DNA of 62,647 bases, the filler included, from Neophaeotheca triangularis (lineage: Eukaryota): NCBI GenBank assembly GCA_054600435.1. It is 4 parts of 4 records of this genome, joined end to end, with 100 filler letters (N's around TTAATTAATTAA, not from the genome) between each part and the next. Parts side by side here need not be neighbours in the genome. Positions count along the whole stretch, not along the records: positions 33,891 to 48,619 come from BAAIJX010000121.1; 3 more parts are not named here. One strand, written 5' to 3'. The first letter of the stretch is position 1, and each line of letters starts with the position of its first letter. Shown here piece after piece: positions 1 through 36,870 of this stretch. A program made the position numbers and the translations under genes. The notes under the pieces are model-generated. The model worked only from the letters and a program-made list of their open reading frames with translations. It was not told the origin of the DNA and ran no database searches.

Positions 1-1821
1 TATTTCTTACATTACCCGTAAAACACCCCAACTCACTCCCCGTTTCAAACGGTGGCCCCCAGCCCCCCCCCCCCCCCCCTTTCCATCCATCTACCTCACC
101 CCAACTCGTCTCGATCCCGTTTCGAGACAGCATGATCAAGTTCAGAAGCTCGCCTTACATAGTTCGCCGGGTCGCGTTTGCTTCTGACAGAGATCGACCT
201 TTCAAGCGTAGGTGAGAGATGAACTCTTTGGAAAGAATGTTGCAAAACGAGGGTGAAATGAAAAAACACCAAGGACGCTGCCAAGGGACGCTGGTAAGCT
301 ATGTAGTCTATAGGTTACAGCTGACCGAAGCGCGGAGGAGTTGAAAGGATGTCGAGCGCCGTTGAGGGAATGGGAAGATTTTGCTGGGAGATCCTGCCAG
401 AGGTTGAGCGTGCAGAGGTCTTTTGAGAATCGAGATTTTGACGTTTAGATTCCTAGACGACCTCATGCCTTGGCTACCTTCGTCACTATGCGGCTCACTC
501 TCCTCTTCATAACCAAGCAAGATGAGGCAGCTAGAAGGCTAACAGCTCAAGATTAATTCTAGCTATATATTCAACTCAGCAATGAACCCTTCCAGAAAGT
601 GGCGCGATGGCTCAAAGGTATGTCCCCTAACCCCCAAATGTCCTAATACAGACTCACTGACCCAAAACAGATTCCACCCACAAAGTGCGCACGTTCGAGT
701 CCCCGACTCCCCTAGTCTCCAAAAAAAAAAAAGAAAAAGAAAAAAAAGAAGCAAACCGGCCTTGAATTGACATATTCAAGGTGCGTGTGGGTTAAATGCC
801 CCATTTTCTCTTCTCCCACAGGGAGTTTCTCTTTTGCTTTTGCAGGCGCCCATTTGATTACAGGGGAAACGGCGCGGGTAGTTGAGCGAGGCCTTGGGTA
901 ACCATGCTTGATGCTTGCCTGCCTCAGGTAGCAGATAAACGGCCTGCGATCGCGCTGGTTACTGGTAATCCCCTCCCCTCTAGTCAAAAGCCCCTAGGAG
1001 GAGAAGGGAACGAACCTCCAAGCGTAAGATAGATAAGCGAAAACAACACCAAGCTCAAGACCCGTCGAGTGAGAGCAAAGGGGACGTGAAGAAGGAAAAA
1101 GCAAAGTAATCGACTCACTCAGCGGCCCCAAAGATAGAGAGAAGAAAAATCAAAGGACCCGAGGAAAATAGAAGTGGTCAAAAGTAGACTAAAGACTAGA
1201 TACATGCAAACCCCTGGCAAGCTCGCAAAGAGAAAACGGCAACACCCCTGGTATCATAAACAGTGCGTAGCATAAGTAGTCAGCGAAAGCGAAATCGCCG
1301 TGTGCCGTAAGAAGCGTCGAAAAAAAATACCCCCCCCCCCCCCCCCGCTATCTGCCCCAGGACAGATATCTCGAGAATTACCTGCCCTGCCCTGCCCTGC
1401 TTTGACCACATGCCCAGTAAACATAGCAACCATCTGACCTGAGACACAACGCCGCAAGCCCGGACATGACCTCCTTTCACCATGCGCCCCTTCTCTCGCT
1501 TTCTCTCTAGACAACCTGCAGGCAGCCCCTGCATACGTCAAGAGGGCAGGCATCCGATATCCGGCACCCGCGAGCTTCAGAAAGCCTGCTATCATCATCG
1601 AGGCGCCACGCCCAGCTCAACAACAATCAAACCCCTTGATCCTCGAGCAATCGGGCTCAACAAGTCCGTCGCCAAACTTTTGCCAAACGAGCTCGGCCCT
1701 GTTCCTTGATGAGGCGAACTCGAAGGACTTTCGACTCGTGAGTAAGCTAAGCGGCGTGGGCATGACAACGCCCACGATTCTTCTTGGCTGAGGTGTATCA
1801 GACCGTCTCAAACCGTGCCGT

Positions 1822-32918: not shown

Positions 32919-33585
32919 TACTCGCCCAGGTTGAGGGGGGTTTATCGATGGTGTTGAGTAGGCTAGACGACTACAAGACTGTTTGATCGTGTCTGCGAGC
33001 TTGGAGAGGTGAAGAGTTTTCGTCGCTCTTCCGGGAGAGGGGGGGGGGGGTCTTGTTCGCGAAGGGAAGGAAGGGTTAAATTCGAGATGAGCGTTCCATG
33101 GCAGTGAAGCGTCAGGGTGGGGTTGCGTTGCGATTGGGAGTGTGCTTTGGTTTAATTAGCAAAGGATAGGGGGGGAGAAGGACGGAGGAGGGAGGCAAGG
33201 GGCGCTTTGGCTGGCTGTGTTGGCTGCGTTTCCTCGTCTCCTCCCTGTCCATCCATCTATCTATCTATTCGAGTCTGTCCTGTTATATCTACATACTACT
33301 GACCCTGTCTTGCTTTTGTTCCTTTTCGTTTCTTTCCTTTTCCTTTTTTTCCTTTGGTTTTTTTCCTTTGGTTTTTGTTCTTTCTCCCCCCTTATTCTTT
33401 CTTTCAGTTCCCCTTTCTGTGAGAATCTTGTAGTTGCGCTTGCGTTTGCAATTGTCTCTTTTGCCCCCTTTTTATTTTTTATTTTCCTGCTCGGGAGGTC
33501 CTTGTTATGGGTTTGTCTTTGGAGCCTTTTCTTTTTCTTTTTCTGTTTCCCTTTTTTTTTTTTTGGTGGCTACTGTGGGTTTGTA

Positions 33586-33666
33586 GGGCTTGTAGAGGGA
33601 GGGCTTATAGGGGGAGGGCTTGTAGAGGGAGGGCTTGTAGAGGGAGGGCTTGTAGAGGGAGGGCTT
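33586..33666 (+). repeat. 15-bp tandem repeat GGGCTTGTAGAGGGA, about 5.4 copies
   Basis: Units at 33586, 33601, 33616, 33631, 33646 and a partial unit at 33661. Confidence 0.9.
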
Positions 33667-33790
33667 ACTAGCGGGCGTGAGGGGATGGGGGGGGGGGGGG
33701 GGGGGGGGGGTTTTTTTTTTTTTTTTTAAGTAATTTAGGTTTAAAAAAAAAATAATTATAAAGGGTTGGTGGGATTAAAAAAAAAATTTA

Positions 33791-33890
33791 NNNNNNNNNN
33801 NNNNNNNNNNNNNNNNNNNNNNNNNNNNNNNNNNTTAATTAATTAANNNNNNNNNNNNNNNNNNNNNNNNNNNNNNNNNNNNNNNNNNNN
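33791..33890. other. artificial assembly spacer (N44-TTAATTAATTAA-N44)
   Basis: Identical to the spacer at 17631; near poly-G/poly-T upstream and followed by poly-C. Confidence 0.97.
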
Positions 33891-33925
33891 TCCCCCCCCC
33901 CCCCCCCCCCCCCCCCCCGCCCTCG

Positions 33926-33969
<44 letters not shown>

Positions 33970-34061
33970 GCTCAGACCTTGCCTTCCGGAACTACTATGT
34001 CAGGCTCTCGAAAGGTTGGGGCTTCACCTTCGATTTCTCTCCGACACCCACAGCACTCACT

Positions 34062-34663
34062 ATGGACGGCACAAGCTCTTCCACTAGAGTAAGTCCAGCT
34101 ATCCCACCTTCAGTGAAACGGACCACCTACTAACGCACCCTCAGTACGAGCCCAACCCAGGCAAAAACACCCGCGGCCGCGCCTACGCCATGGCCGAGCA
34201 CAACCATCTGCAAGCGCAATACCACTGCACGCCGCTCGAAATCATCCCGGTCGAGCTCCGCGGCACCCACGCGCTCACCGACGCCTTCATTCACTATCTC
34301 TACCTCATCAGTCGCCGCGTCCCGCGTCTAGATCACTTGCAAGATCTCATGCACCTTGAAGTGAGCCAGAGGCGGTCGAAGAGGCCGCGCTCGGTGGCGA
34401 ATGTGGCGGCCAACGACATGCGCACTATTCTTGGCAAGGTGAAGACTGCGCATGGGAGGGCGAGGGCTAGGGCGATGGTGGAGGATGCTAGGGAGGAGGA
34501 GGAGAGCAAGGAGGAGGAGAGGAAGGAGGCTGAGGTGAAGGGAGGTGATGGAGAGGGCAAGGAGGCTGAGGAGGCTGAGGAGGCGGAGAGTGAAGCGAAC
34601 GAGAACGCTGTAGAGGAGGAGGTTGAAGCTGGTACTACCCGTTCAGGTAGGAACTTCACTTGA
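34062..34663 (+). CDS. hypothetical protein (~181 aa, acidic C-terminus)
   Basis: Exon 34062-34088, intron 34089-34144 with near-perfect signals (GTAAGT, TACTAAC, CAG), exon 34145-34663 in frame with the 157-aa ORF. Confidence 0.65.
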
Positions 34664-34822
34664 GTATGGTACATGCTGTATGTAGATCGCTCACTCCATC
34701 TACGATTCCTTTTCACCTATTTGCCGCTAAGAAATAAATGTAATTGTCGTTCGAAAGCTGCACGCGATCTGAACTCAACACCTCAATGGAGGGGTTTCTT
34801 TTTCTGTTTTCATTTTTCAAGG

Positions 34823-34830
34823 TATATATT
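34823..34830 (+). promoter_or_regulatory. TATA box of the putative Pol III ncRNA gene
   Basis: TATATATT starts 29 nt upstream of the 5' strand of the RNA closing helix. Confidence 0.5.
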
Positions 34831-34851
34831 CAACTTACACCCAGGTTCCTT

Positions 34852-34946
34852 GTCGTGAGTCCCTACGGACAGTTTCTCAGCGCGAGTGTCGCCGGCACAA
34901 GATCGCCCGCGGAAGGGGGTAGCGTTTAGTGATACCCTACGACGCC
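34852..34946 (+). ncRNA. putative small structured RNA (four-way junction), probably Pol III-transcribed; family not identified
   Basis: Closing helix GTCGT(34852-56)/ACGAC(34939-43). Hairpin GTCC-CTAC-GGAC. Long arm TTTC/GGAA, GCGA/TCGC, GTGTC/GGCAC. Hairpin GGGGTA/TACCCT. Upstream TATA, T12 run and downstream B box. Confidence 0.65.
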
Positions 34947-34958
34947 TTTTTTTTTTTT
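34947..34958 (+). terminator. oligo-T Pol III-type terminator
   Basis: 12 consecutive T starting 4 nt after the closing helix. Confidence 0.55.
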
Positions 34959-34994
34959 GTCCCGATTCGGCCGAACAGCGGCGGCGAGGTCGAG

Positions 34995-35004
34995 GGTTCG
35001 AGTC
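34995..35004 (+). promoter_or_regulatory. TFIIIC B-box-like element downstream of the putative ncRNA
   Basis: GGTTCGAGTC matches the B-box consensus GGTTCGANTC. Confidence 0.5.
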
Positions 35005-35108
35005 TTGCAACAGCTTCGATTCTTTTTGCACGGCAATAATCCTACAAATACCGCCGCCCGCCGACCTCACCTCACACCTACGTCACAACCAACCGTCCCC
35101 TCAACCCT

Positions 35109-36870
35109 TCACCCACTCTTCACCTTGCCCTCCACCCACGTCCCCTCCAACGCAGCCTCACCCACATCCAAAACCAACCCACCCACGGCCTCAGCGAAAG
35201 CAACGACAGGCTCCACCCCCGGCCTCTGAACCACCCACTCCCAAAGCCTCAGAACCGCAACTAGCACCAACAAAAACAACCTCAGCAGCCAATCCGCCCA
35301 GCCCAACTCCGGCCGATGCCCTCTCGACTCCCTCGCATCGACAAACTCCCAAGGAACTTTCGCGGCTAGCTGATCGATAGCGACGCGTAACCCGGAGCTG
35401 AAACCGTCTTCATGGAAGCCATAGCTCGTCCAGGCGCCTGCGTAGCTGACAGCGCGTTTGCCTTGGATGGAGGGTAAGCGGTTTTGGGCGCGGACTGCGG
35501 CGACGGTGTAGAGCGGGTGACGGTAGGTGTAGGTTCCTTGAGTGAGCGAGGGGGAAGGCGGGTGTGGGGGGTTGAGGGTGACGAGGACGTCTGAGTAGCT
35601 GGACGTGGGGAGGTGTTGGAGGGTGTTCATGTTGTAGGTTAGGCTTACGCCTGTCTGAGGGGGGGACGAGTGAGGCGACTTTGGGGTTGGTGACATTTGG
35701 TTTGGAGTTGTCGTTAGGTAGTTCCAGGCTGTCCAGACTGCGCGGCGCTTGGGCATCAGGGAGAGGTCGGAGTGCATGTAGGCGGTGTTGGGGGTTGTGC
35801 GGAAGGCGGTGAAGATTTCCGTTTCTTCGCGGGAGATGGAGGTTGTAGCGCTGGGGTTGTGGGTCGAGGTGCGGTCGTAGTGGCCCTTTTCGTGGCTCAC
35901 GAGTAAGGGGAGGATCTCATCTCCATGGCAGGCTAGGATTGCGTGGACGAATTCTTCGGTCTCGGTACGGTTCGAAGTGGCATTTTTCCAGGTTACGGAC
36001 ACAGGATCTTCGCTTCCTTCTGCTGGGCGGATGATATTGCCGACTTCGCTATTGGTGTGGATGTGCAGGCGATCTTGCGGGAAGCTCTTGATGATGGCAT
36101 CAATATAGCGCTGCGAGCCTCCTGGAATCGTGAGCCAAGGAGGGCGTACTGCGATTGTGGAGAGTAGATGATGGTTCCACATGAAGCGCACGAGAGTTTG
36201 CGCGGGAAAGTCAAGACTCGCCTTGTCTGGGCTGGTACTCCAAACTGCTGCAGTCATGGGGATGAGGTAGTCGTCCCGGAAACTGGACGAGTAGCCTTCA
36301 CGCTCGAGGTACTCGCCAATGGTCAGATCGCGGACGTCCTTCCGCCACTGAGTCGAGGAACCTAGTCGGCCATCATCGGAGTCTGCAGAGAGCAAGTCGA
36401 GAGCGAATTGGTTGAAGCGGATGATGTCGAAGATCATGCGCCAGTGTCGTGGTCGGAAGAGATTGCGGCGTTGGGCGAAGATGCCTTTGCCCGATCCACT
36501 CCATTCGAAAGCGCCTCCATCACGGGACACGCCAAAAGTCATCTCAGTCTCGATCGTGTCGACGCCGACGTCTTTGAGAAAGCGGAGGAAGTTTGCTATT
36601 ATTGTCAGTCAACGGCGCCGTCTATTCAAGCGCGCTGGCTGGGTAGACCTCACGGTAGGTGGCAGTGTTCATGACGATAAAGCCAGTATCGACGGGCGTC
36701 TCCTTGCCCTGATGTCGCCATGTCTGTGTGTTTGTATGGCCGCCTAGCTTGGAAGAGCGCTCGAAGATGTGGACGTCGTACTCGCTGTCTTTGAGAGCCC
36801 AGGCTGCACCGAGTCCGGCACAACCGCTACCGACAATGGCGACCTTTTTGCGCTGGTTCGATGGCTTCAT
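35109..36870 (-). CDS. FAD/NAD(P)-binding oxidoreductase (amine-oxidase fold, COG2907-like), C-terminal membrane anchor
   Basis: Exons 36870-36654 and 36595-35109. Rossmann motif VAIVGSGCAGLGAAWAL, LGGHTNT, PVDTGFIVMNTATYPNF, YAGAWTSYGFHEDGFSSG. Hydrophobic tail ending KVKSG. Confidence 0.88.

What the first reader, a model, noticed from the sequence alone, without database searches (positions are those of the whole stretch)
34823..35004. Candidate RNA polymerase III gene for a ~92-nt four-way-junction RNA with U6-like promoter architecture
Seen, in order on the + strand in a short intergenic gap: TATATATT (34823-30); 29 nt later a compact fold closed by GTCGT(34852-56)/ACGAC(34939-43) that encloses three arms, namely GTCC-CTAC-GGAC (34859-70), a bulged long arm TTTC/GGAA + GCGA/TCGC + GTGTC-GCC-GGCAC (34873-34914), and GGGGTA/TACCCT (34916-38); then T12 (34947-58); then GGTTCGAGTC (34995-35004). 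Established: upstream TATA, oligo-T terminator and a B box downstream of the terminator is the architecture of the S. cerevisiae U6 (SNR6) Pol III gene. The sequence lacks U6 (ACAGAGA), tRNA (internal TTCRA loop), 5S and snoRNA hallmarks. Inference: an independent Pol III small RNA with cloverleaf-like topology and unknown function. It may belong to a poorly characterised fungal sRNA family; I cannot tell without a search.
Basis: partly seen in the sequence, partly recalled or inferred. Interest (0 to 1): 0.8.

Follow-up and report, generated by a model that had tools for sequence, protein, structure and literature searches.

The report
Unproven Pol III small-RNA gene candidate
A fungal gene spacer carries a TATA box, a T-run and a tRNA-type B box laid out like the yeast U6 gene, but nothing yet shows that a small RNA is made there, so it is a lead and not a finding.

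Summary
Every motif and all 28 proposed base pairs sit at the stated coordinates. The locus is a 445-bp spacer between two convergent genes of a Dothideomycete; the protein database names an identical protein as Neophaeotheca triangularis.

For a gene:
- The layout (TATA, about 95 nt, T12, exact B-box core) is expected only about 5e-4 times per window by chance.
- An end-closed fold with 3 or more arms occurs in only 2-3% of controls.
- The same 13-mer TATA block recurs once, at 564, again followed by GTTCGAGTC.

Against a gene:
- Folding energy is average (z +0.2).
- There is no A block, no Rfam or tRNA match, and no homologue in 79 related fungal loci.
- No expression data could be reached.
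- TATATA and homopolymer runs are ordinary in such spacers, and the B box alone is expected 0.57 times per window.

Verdict: unresolved. I put about 45% on an ordinary spacer with coincident motifs and about one third on a real RNA polymerase III (Pol III) gene. Cheap follow-up is justified.

The parts
34816..34835 (+). TATA block. TATATATT is at 34823-34830, inside a 20-mer that matches 557-576 at 18 of 20 positions. The 13-mer TATATATTCAACT is identical at both places.
   Evidence: 2 exact copies; 0.37 expected at up to 2 mismatches; pairwise blastn E 0.009.
34852..34946 (+). Putative transcribed segment of 95 nt. It begins with G after T, 29 nt from the first T of the TATA block, and ends 3 nt after the closing stem.
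   Evidence: There is no ATG for 420 nt after 34823.
34852..34943 (+). Robust helices: closing stem 34852-56/34939-43, first arm 34859-62/34867-70, last arm 34916-21/34933-38.
   Evidence: MFE and centroid; pair list; energy -25.8 against MFE -30.2.
34947..34958 (+). T12 run, a possible Pol III terminator. It reads as A12 on the strand of the convergent gene.
   Evidence: It is one of about 15 T>=10 runs in the window.
34987..35008 (+). Exact B-box core GGTTCGAGTC (34995-35004) in a context resembling a tRNA T arm: AGGTC, then GAGGG/TTCGAGT/CTTGC, which pairs at 4 of 5 positions including two G-U.
   Evidence: The T-arm reading is my own; the Rfam tRNA model gives no match.
35013..35028 (+). 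Second, weaker B-like 11-mer GCTTCGATTCT (2 mismatches), followed directly by T5 at 35024-35028.
34190..34663 (+). Last exon of the upstream gene, an orphan hypothetical protein with a Glu-rich tail. Its stop is at 34661-34663, and AATAAA lies at 34733-34738.
35109..36608 (-). Last large exon of the convergent FAD/NAD-type oxidoreductase gene. Its stop at 35109-35111 is 105 nt from the B box, so its 3' UTR probably runs antisense through the B box.
   Evidence: relatives align to residues 6-485 of 499; N-terminal exon matches NAD_binding_8 and Amino_oxidase.
557..702 (+). Second place with the same two boxes: the TATA block at 557-576, and CGTTCGAGTCC at 692-702, 129 nt after the TATA start.

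Best explanation
Most likely there is no dedicated small-RNA gene here. The 445-bp stretch is the spacer between two convergent Pol II genes, and three common or chance elements happen to line up in it.
- TATATATT reads the same on both strands. It fits a Pol II-type TATA or core-promoter block, since the same 13-mer recurs at 564. It also fits the UAUAUA efficiency element of yeast-type 3'-end signals (recalled knowledge). On the minus strand it is followed by an A-rich tract, as such signals are.
- T12 is one of many homopolymer runs in this genome's non-coding DNA.
- The B-box match is either chance or the relic T arm of a decayed tRNA gene.
- The cloverleaf-like fold is what a GC-rich 95-mer gives by chance in a few per cent of cases.

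Shown here: the positions, the frequencies and the fold statistics. Inferred: that the elements are not used together.
For: - The fold is no more stable than shuffles: z +0.21, and 514 of 1000 shuffles fold as well.
- The B box alone is expected 0.57 times per window. Four distinct non-tRNA matches occur in 447,928 nt of other fungal DNA.
- There is no A block at up to 2 mismatches anywhere between 34443 and 35222.
- There are 52 T>=6 runs and about 15 T>=10 runs in 62.6 kb.
- The spacer lies between the stops of convergent genes at 34661-63 and 35109-11. 3'-end signals are therefore expected there. AATAAA is at 34733-38, and the minus strand has A-rich tracts after TATATA.
- There is no Rfam or tRNA match.
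- With about 4.6e-4 chance composites per window, a scan of many fungal windows will meet such cases.
Against: - The ordered triple is rare within one window (4.6e-4).
- The fold is closed exactly between TATA+29 and the T-run, a topology seen in only 2-3% of controls.
- The only two copies of the 13-mer TATA block are each followed on the same strand by GTTCGAGTC. That accounts for 2 of the 3 GTTCGANTC sites in the window. No such pair exists in 448 kb of other fungal loci.
- There is no ATG for 420 nt after the TATA, so it is not an ordinary mRNA promoter.
Confidence: 0.45

Rival explanations
1. One reading: an independent Pol III gene. TFIIIC binds the B box at 34995-35004 and helps TFIIIB onto the TATA block at 34823-30. 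Pol III starts near G34852 and stops in T12. The product is an RNA of about 96-100 nt with an oligo-U tail, whose paired ends close a tRNA-shaped four-way junction. Its function is unknown. It may be one of a lineage-specific set of genes that share the 13-mer TATA block and a B box.
For: - Geometry: the TATA starts 29 nt before a pyrimidine/purine start; T12 begins 3 nt after the closing stem; an exact 10-of-10 B-box core lies 37 nt after the run on the same strand.
- The chance expectation is 4.6e-4 per window.
- The end-closed multi-arm fold is rare: 28 of 1000 shuffles and 32 of 1500 genomic 95-mers.
- A second place (564/693) carries both boxes in the same order and on the same strand.
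- There is no ATG within 420 nt.
- Precedents (passages read): the SNR6 layout, and the flexible use of TATA, A and B elements in fungal U6 genes (PMC5855946). Neurospora intergenic loci are transcribed by Pol III from TATA-like elements and carry poly-T tracts; milR-1 has no A or B box (PMC3547838).
Against: - There is no A block at up to 2 mismatches.
- Folding energy is average, and the central arm is not supported.
- No family match, and no homologue in 79 related loci, although these are distant and not syntenic.
- The second place has no T>=5 run within 320 nt and contains an intron-like stretch, which does not suit Pol III.
- The tRNA genes seen in the other fungal loci have no TATAWAW upstream.
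Confidence: 0.33
2. The TATA block is a Pol II core promoter, and the segment is the 5' part of a non-coding Pol II transcript. That transcript runs antisense into the 3' end of the oxidoreductase gene. T12 and the B box play no part.
For: - The same 13-mer at 564 sits just before an ATG (582) and an intron-like GTATGT...CTGAC...CAG stretch, which suggests a Pol II unit.
- The other TATAWAW sites in the window mostly precede ATGs by 30-140 nt.
- No ORF follows 34823.
Against: - The 62-aa ORF after 564 has no homologue or annotated counterpart of 34-109 aa, so a Pol II mRNA is not shown there either.
- This reading leaves the B box after both copies unexplained.
Confidence: 0.1
3. The B-box region is the remnant T arm and trailer of a decayed tRNA gene. 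It may still bind TFIIIC alone, as an ETC-like site acting as a boundary between the convergent genes. No RNA is made from the upstream fold.
For: - AGGTC directly precedes a T-arm-like GAGGG/TTCGAGT/CTTGC, which pairs at 4 of 5 positions, and T5 lies 16 nt after it (my own reading).
- None of the four chance B-box matches in other loci has a pairable stem.
- ETC sites are B-box sites in Pol II intergenes that bind TFIIIC without the polymerase (PMC3395662, passages).
Against: - The Rfam tRNA model gives no match even on 101 nt.
- No 5' half can be found.
- The relaxed ARAGORN call at 34871-35017 is noise: 8 such calls per 62 kb.
- Six of the eight yeast ETC sites lie between divergent genes, not convergent ones, and they carry a 10-base extension that I could not test.
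Confidence: 0.07

Closest known systems
S. cerevisiae SNR6 (U6 snRNA gene) split Pol III promoter
   Same: An upstream TATA box about 30 nt before the start, a T-run terminator, and a B block downstream of the terminator on the same strand (PMC5855946, passages).
   Different: - There is no internal A block at up to 2 mismatches.
- The B box is only 37 nt past the terminator, about 144 nt from the start. The review gives an A-B distance of about 200 bp for SNR6.
- The RNA has no U6 similarity: no Rfam match and no ACAGAGA.
Neurospora crassa Pol III-transcribed milRNA loci
   Same: These are intergenic loci in Pezizomycotina with TATA-like elements and poly-T tracts, and they belong to no conserved RNA family. 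milR-1 works without A or B boxes (PMC3547838, passages).
   Different: No small-RNA or Argonaute data exist here. The fold is a multi-arm junction and not a long hairpin. An exact B box is present.
Extra-TFIIIC (ETC) and COC sites
   Same: An isolated B box in a spacer between Pol II genes (PMC3395662, passages).
   Different: The flanking genes here are convergent, whereas most ETC sites lie between divergent genes. The extended ETC consensus was not tested. The TATA and T-run are placed as for a transcription unit.
tRNA genes and tRNA-like RNAs
   Same: A four-way junction with a 2-nt linker after the closing stem, a 4-bp first arm, and a last arm stacked directly on the closing stem. The B box sits in a T-arm-like context.
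   Different: The closing stem has only 5 bp, the loops are the wrong size, and there are no A or B boxes inside the fold. ARAGORN (with and without introns) and the Rfam tRNA models are negative.
Yeast-type mRNA 3'-end signals (UAUAUA efficiency element plus A-rich positioning element; recalled knowledge, not read here)
   Same: TATATA with flanking A-rich (minus strand) or U-rich (plus strand) tracts, 160-280 nt after the stops of two convergent genes.
   Different: This does not explain the exact B box or the recurrence of the 13-mer together with GTTCGAGTC at 564/693.

Membership tests
SNR6-type Pol III gene | TATA box about 30 nt upstream of the start | tested here: met
   TATATATT at 34823-30 lies 29 nt before G34852, which follows a T. 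The start itself is inferred.
SNR6-type Pol III gene | Internal A block (TRGCNNAGTGG-like) | tested here: not met
   No match at up to 2 mismatches between 34443 and 35222 on either strand. The review notes that fungal U6 genes may lack identifiable A blocks.
SNR6-type Pol III gene | Oligo-T terminator at the RNA's 3' end | tested here: met
   T12 at 34947-58, beginning 3 nt after the closing stem.
SNR6-type Pol III gene | B block downstream of the terminator on the same strand | tested here: met
   GGTTCGAGTC at 34995-35004, the only match in the window.
SNR6-type Pol III gene | A discrete Pol III transcript, with Pol III and TFIIIC occupancy | not testable with these tools
   No RNA holder is listed, and no contig was laid on the candidate. 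No ChIP data could be reached.
U6 snRNA (Rfam RF00026) | Match to the covariance model; ACAGAGA box | tested here: not met
   No match even at E up to 10. ACAGAGA is absent from 34852-34946.
tRNA or tRNA-Sec | Cloverleaf accepted by ARAGORN or the Rfam tRNA models; internal A and B boxes | tested here: not met
   ARAGORN finds 0 genes, with introns allowed as well. Rfam gives nothing. The call at the 90% threshold is noise.
Any Rfam 15 family, including the Aspergillus fumigatus sRNA and snoRNA families | Covariance-model match | tested here: not met
   There are 0 matches at gathering score in the window. The only other match is HOTTIP_2, at 12.6 bits against a cut-off of 80.
ETC (extra-TFIIIC) site | B box with a conserved 10-base 3' extension; TFIIIC without Pol III; mostly in divergent intergenes | tested here: inconclusive
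   The B-box core is present. The flanking genes are convergent. The letters of the extension were not available to me, and occupancy cannot be tested.
Conserved structured ncRNA in general | Homologues with compensatory base changes | tested here: inconclusive
   No homologue in 79 loci (447,928 nt) of fungi whose oxidoreductase is at most 63% identical over its full length. These loci are not syntenic. No closer genome could be reached.

The most novel reading that the evidence does not exclude
A lineage-specific class of Pol III small-RNA genes in Neophaeotheca or other Dothideomycetes. It would be defined by a conserved 13-nt TATA block (TATATATTCAACT) plus a tRNA-type B box placed after or inside the transcribed part, without an A block. 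The member at 34852-34946 would yield a tRNA-shaped RNA of about 95 nt, not a tRNA, with an oligo-U tail. The site at 564-702 would be a second member.
Probability: 0.3. Interest if true: 0.65.

Novelty: not a real feature. Interest (0 to 1): 0.4.

Why it matters
Outside tRNA, 5S, U6, SRP RNA and RNase P RNA, the Pol III transcriptome of filamentous fungi is barely charted. The Neurospora milRNA work shows that lineage-specific Pol III units do exist there (PMC3547838).

If this locus is transcribed, it would be a new Pol III RNA that uses the otherwise U6-specific split promoter. The shared 13-mer would then give a handle for finding the whole family in a genome scan.

If it is not transcribed, it is a useful calibration case. 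A textbook-looking TATA/T-run/B-box layout with a closed cloverleaf can arise in a gene spacer at a rate of a few per ten thousand windows.

Tried and rejected
- **Whole genome.** None is held for this window. The metagenome records behind the loci cannot be searched either.
- **Sequencing runs.** Eight holders are listed and none is on record as RNA. I laid four of the nine listed runs (X3, X4, X5, X8). Only one 155-nt X4 contig was laid, on 34600-34717, and nothing lay on the candidate. This says nothing about expression or conservation.
- **Synteny route.** I fetched 79 metagenome loci holding relatives of the oxidoreductase.
  - blastn and nhmmer of the spacer gave only 12-26-nt matches at E of at least 0.79, and no nhmmer hit.
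  - The 14-mer shared with L003 and L004 lies in what reads as coding sequence of a different downstream gene.
  - The upstream orphan protein has no match in the loci (E of at least 3.5).
- **Earlier notes of this scan.** Nothing by place or by sequence. The word search returned only a yeast SNR6 case and a Naegleria case.
- **tRNA.**
  - The built-in ARAGORN tool found none of the intron-bearing tRNAs in the 11 loci I gave it, so I reran ARAGORN with introns allowed (output cut after L071).
  - Lowering its threshold to 90% yields a 'tRNA-Thr' at 34871-35017 with a 50-nt 'intron' that contains T9. I rejected this as noise: there are 23 such calls in the window, 8 of them with introns of at most 100 nt.
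  - A search for a 5' acceptor strand to pair with the 3' side found nothing usable.
- **Segmental duplication between 1-1800 and 33900-35600.** Rejected. Only the 20-mer is shared, and the global alignment is uninformative.
- **Second place at 564-770.** No Rfam match of any weight, fold z 0.00, and the ORF has no homologue. Its nature stays open.
- **Other non-tRNA B-box matches.** L043 and L062 were read and show no similar layout.
- **Literature.** The survey of fungal U6 promoters (Canzler et al. 2016, PMC4829304) is not held, so I could not check how Dothideomycete U6 genes place their B block. A search by the species name listed 8 of 14 papers; judged by title and abstract, none concerns small RNAs or Pol III.

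Full report
**What is there.**
- TATATATT is at 34823-34830.
- A 95-nt segment spans 34852-34946.
- T12 is at 34947-34958.
- GGTTCGAGTC is at 34995-35004.
- All 28 base pairs of the six proposed helices are standard pairs, three of them G-U.

**Setting.** The window is fungal. An identical protein in the protein database is named by its source as a hypothetical protein of Neophaeotheca triangularis, a Dothideomycete.

The candidate lies in a 445-bp spacer between two convergent genes.
- Upstream, on the plus strand, is an orphan gene with a Glu-rich tail. Its stop is at 34661-63. It has only one database match, which is itself.
- Downstream, on the minus strand, is an FAD/NAD-type oxidoreductase gene. 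Its stop is at 35109-11. Relatives align up to residue 485 of 499, so that stop is probably the true one.

The B box is therefore 105 nt past the stop of the minus-strand gene, and the TATA block is 160 nt past the stop of the plus-strand gene. This is a place where mRNA 3'-end signals are expected. AATAAA is at 34733-38. On the minus strand TATATA is followed by A-rich tracts. That layout fits the yeast-type efficiency and positioning elements, which I recall and did not read here.

**Known families.**
- Rfam 15 gives no match at gathering score in the whole window.
- With permissive thresholds on 601 nt it gives only a meaningless lncRNA match (12.6 bits against a cut-off of 80).
- On 101 nt around the B box it gives three chance matches, none to tRNA.
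- ARAGORN finds no tRNA, and none with introns allowed either.
- Lowering its threshold to 90% gives a 'tRNA-Thr' at 34871-35017. The same setting gives 23 calls in the window, 8 of them with introns of at most 100 nt, so this call is noise.

**The fold.**
- The MFE is -30.2 kcal/mol, against a mean of -30.9 for 200 shuffles (z +0.21; 123 fold at least as well). In a second test 514 of 1000 shuffles did so.
- The opposite strand is equally unremarkable (z +0.15).
Its long central arm appears in neither the MFE nor the centroid. Only the closing stem and the first and last arms are kept.
- Stability therefore gives no support, but the topology is uncommon. A fold closed by its own ends with 3 or more arms occurs in 28 of 1000 shuffles, 18 of them with a closing stem of at least 5 bp.
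- It occurs in 32 of 1500 random 95-mers of the window, and in 2 of 47 segments upstream of T>=6 runs, one of which is the candidate.
- The segment's ends were set by the TATA distance and the T-run, so this 2-3% figure is a fair, modest point in favour.

**The motifs.**
- The B-box core has 1 match against 0.57 expected.
- In 447,928 nt of other fungal loci it occurs 11 times. Three of these (L057, L059, L070) lie in tRNA genes that ARAGORN called with introns allowed.
- L071 and L074 share the flanks of those tRNA genes, but the listing was cut before them.
- Four distinct sequences are not in tRNAs (L043, L051, L056, and L062 = L063 = L064). That is about one per 100 kb, the chance rate.
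- T>=6 runs number 52 and T>=10 runs about 15 in the window. TATAWAW is rarer, at 6 overlapping matches per strand.
- I placed a B box at every position of the window and asked two things: is there a T>=6 run ending within 100 nt upstream, and does that run have a TATAWAW 80-170 nt before it? The first holds at 3.1% of positions and both hold at 0.081%. That gives about 4.6e-4 chance composites per window.
- This is roughly 0.2 per genome of 19-36 Mb (size from the abstract of PMC13064199). It would be more with the freedom a reader has in choosing motif variants and spacings.
- The internal A block that belongs to the SNR6 scheme (PMC5855946, passages) is absent. No TRGCNNAGTGG match at up to 2 mismatches lies between 34443 and 35222.

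**A second place with the same two boxes.**
- TATATATTCAACT occurs exactly twice in the window, at 564 and 34823, both on the plus strand. It sits inside a 20-mer that matches at 18 of 20 positions.
- GTTCGANTC occurs three times, at 693, 3916 and 34996. The sites at 693 and 34996 lie 129 and 173 nt after the two 13-mers on the same strand. The third is inside a coding region.
- For a pre-named site, the chance of such a 9-mer within 200 nt is about 0.005.
- None of the 79 other fungal loci has a TATAWAW 80-260 nt before GTTCGANTC.
- Nothing else is shared between the two places, so they are not a recent duplication.
- The place at 564 has no T>=5 run within 320 nt. It has an intron-like GTATGT...CTGAC...CAG stretch and an A-rich tract. 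Its 62-aa ORF has no homologue, it has no Rfam match, and its fold is average (z 0.00).
- This raises the odds that the TATA block is a functional element. It does not say which polymerase uses it, and the features at 564 suit Pol II better than Pol III.
- After 34823 there is no ATG for 420 nt, so any transcript from there would be non-coding.

**Context of the B box.** Read as a tRNA, 34987-35008 would be a variable loop (AGGTC) plus a T arm: GAGGG/TTCGAGT/CTTGC, with 4 of 5 pairs including two G-U. A weaker B-like 11-mer and a T5 follow. The four chance B-box matches in other loci have no pairable stem. This is my own reading. The tRNA covariance model does not report it, and I found no 5' half. 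It leaves open that the B box is a relic of a tRNA gene and not pure chance.

**What could not be done.**
- No genome of the organism or of close relatives could be searched.
- The one run search listed no RNA run, and the one laying call put no contig on the candidate.
- The related loci are too distant and are not syntenic. Their oxidoreductase is at most 63% identical over its full length.

**Weighing.**
- For a Pol III gene: the exact geometry; the rarity of the triple; the closed topology; the second locus; and precedent for lineage-specific Pol III units with TATA-like elements in Pezizomycotina (PMC3547838, passages), with flexible promoter make-up in fungal U6 genes (PMC5855946).
- Against a Pol III gene: average folding energy; no A block; no family; no homologue. 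TATATA, homopolymer runs and a lone B box are all ordinary in such spacers. The look-elsewhere effect of a large scan also counts against it.
- My odds: 45% an ordinary spacer with coincident motifs; 33% a real Pol III gene; 10% a Pol II non-coding transcript from the TATA block; 7% a tRNA relic or TFIIIC-only site.
- I label it 'not a real feature' only because that is the single most likely outcome. The finding is not refuted, and the tests listed under next steps are cheap.

Noticed in passing
window 557-770: A second copy of the 13-mer TATATATTCAACT is at 564-576. It is followed by an ATG at 582, an intron-like GTATGT...CTGAC...CAG stretch (about 621-671), CGTTCGAGTCC at 692-702, and an A12GA5GA8 tract at 721-750. 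The 62-aa ORF 582-767 has no homologue and no Rfam match. This is an unannotated unit of unknown kind.
   Followed up: partly
window 34823-35242: There is no ATG on the plus strand for 420 nt after the TATA block, although much of this stretch is antisense to a coding region. This is unusual for that length, and I have no explanation.
   Followed up: no
window 34190-34663: The upstream gene is an orphan. Its only database match is itself, a 181-aa hypothetical protein. It has no Pfam domain and carries a Glu/Lys-rich tail, so it may not be a real gene.
   Followed up: partly
window 33160-34090: This is a long low-complexity stretch with T-rich runs up to T17, GGAGG-type repeats and proline-coding repeats. 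A run of unread bases (N) near 33840-33890 marks an assembly gap about 1 kb upstream of the candidate.
   Followed up: no
window 748-842, minus strand: This is the only other segment upstream of a T>=6 run with an end-closed fold of 3 arms. It lies beside the second TATA-block place. The pairing is largely purine-rich against pyrimidine-rich low complexity, so it is probably trivial.
   Followed up: no
L057 19-119, L059 8335-8491, L070 2706-2807: The built-in tRNA tool does not report intron-containing fungal tRNA genes. ARAGORN with introns allowed finds tRNA-Ser and tRNA-Ala genes in these loci. A 'no tRNA' answer from the tool is therefore weak for eukaryotic windows.
   Followed up: yes
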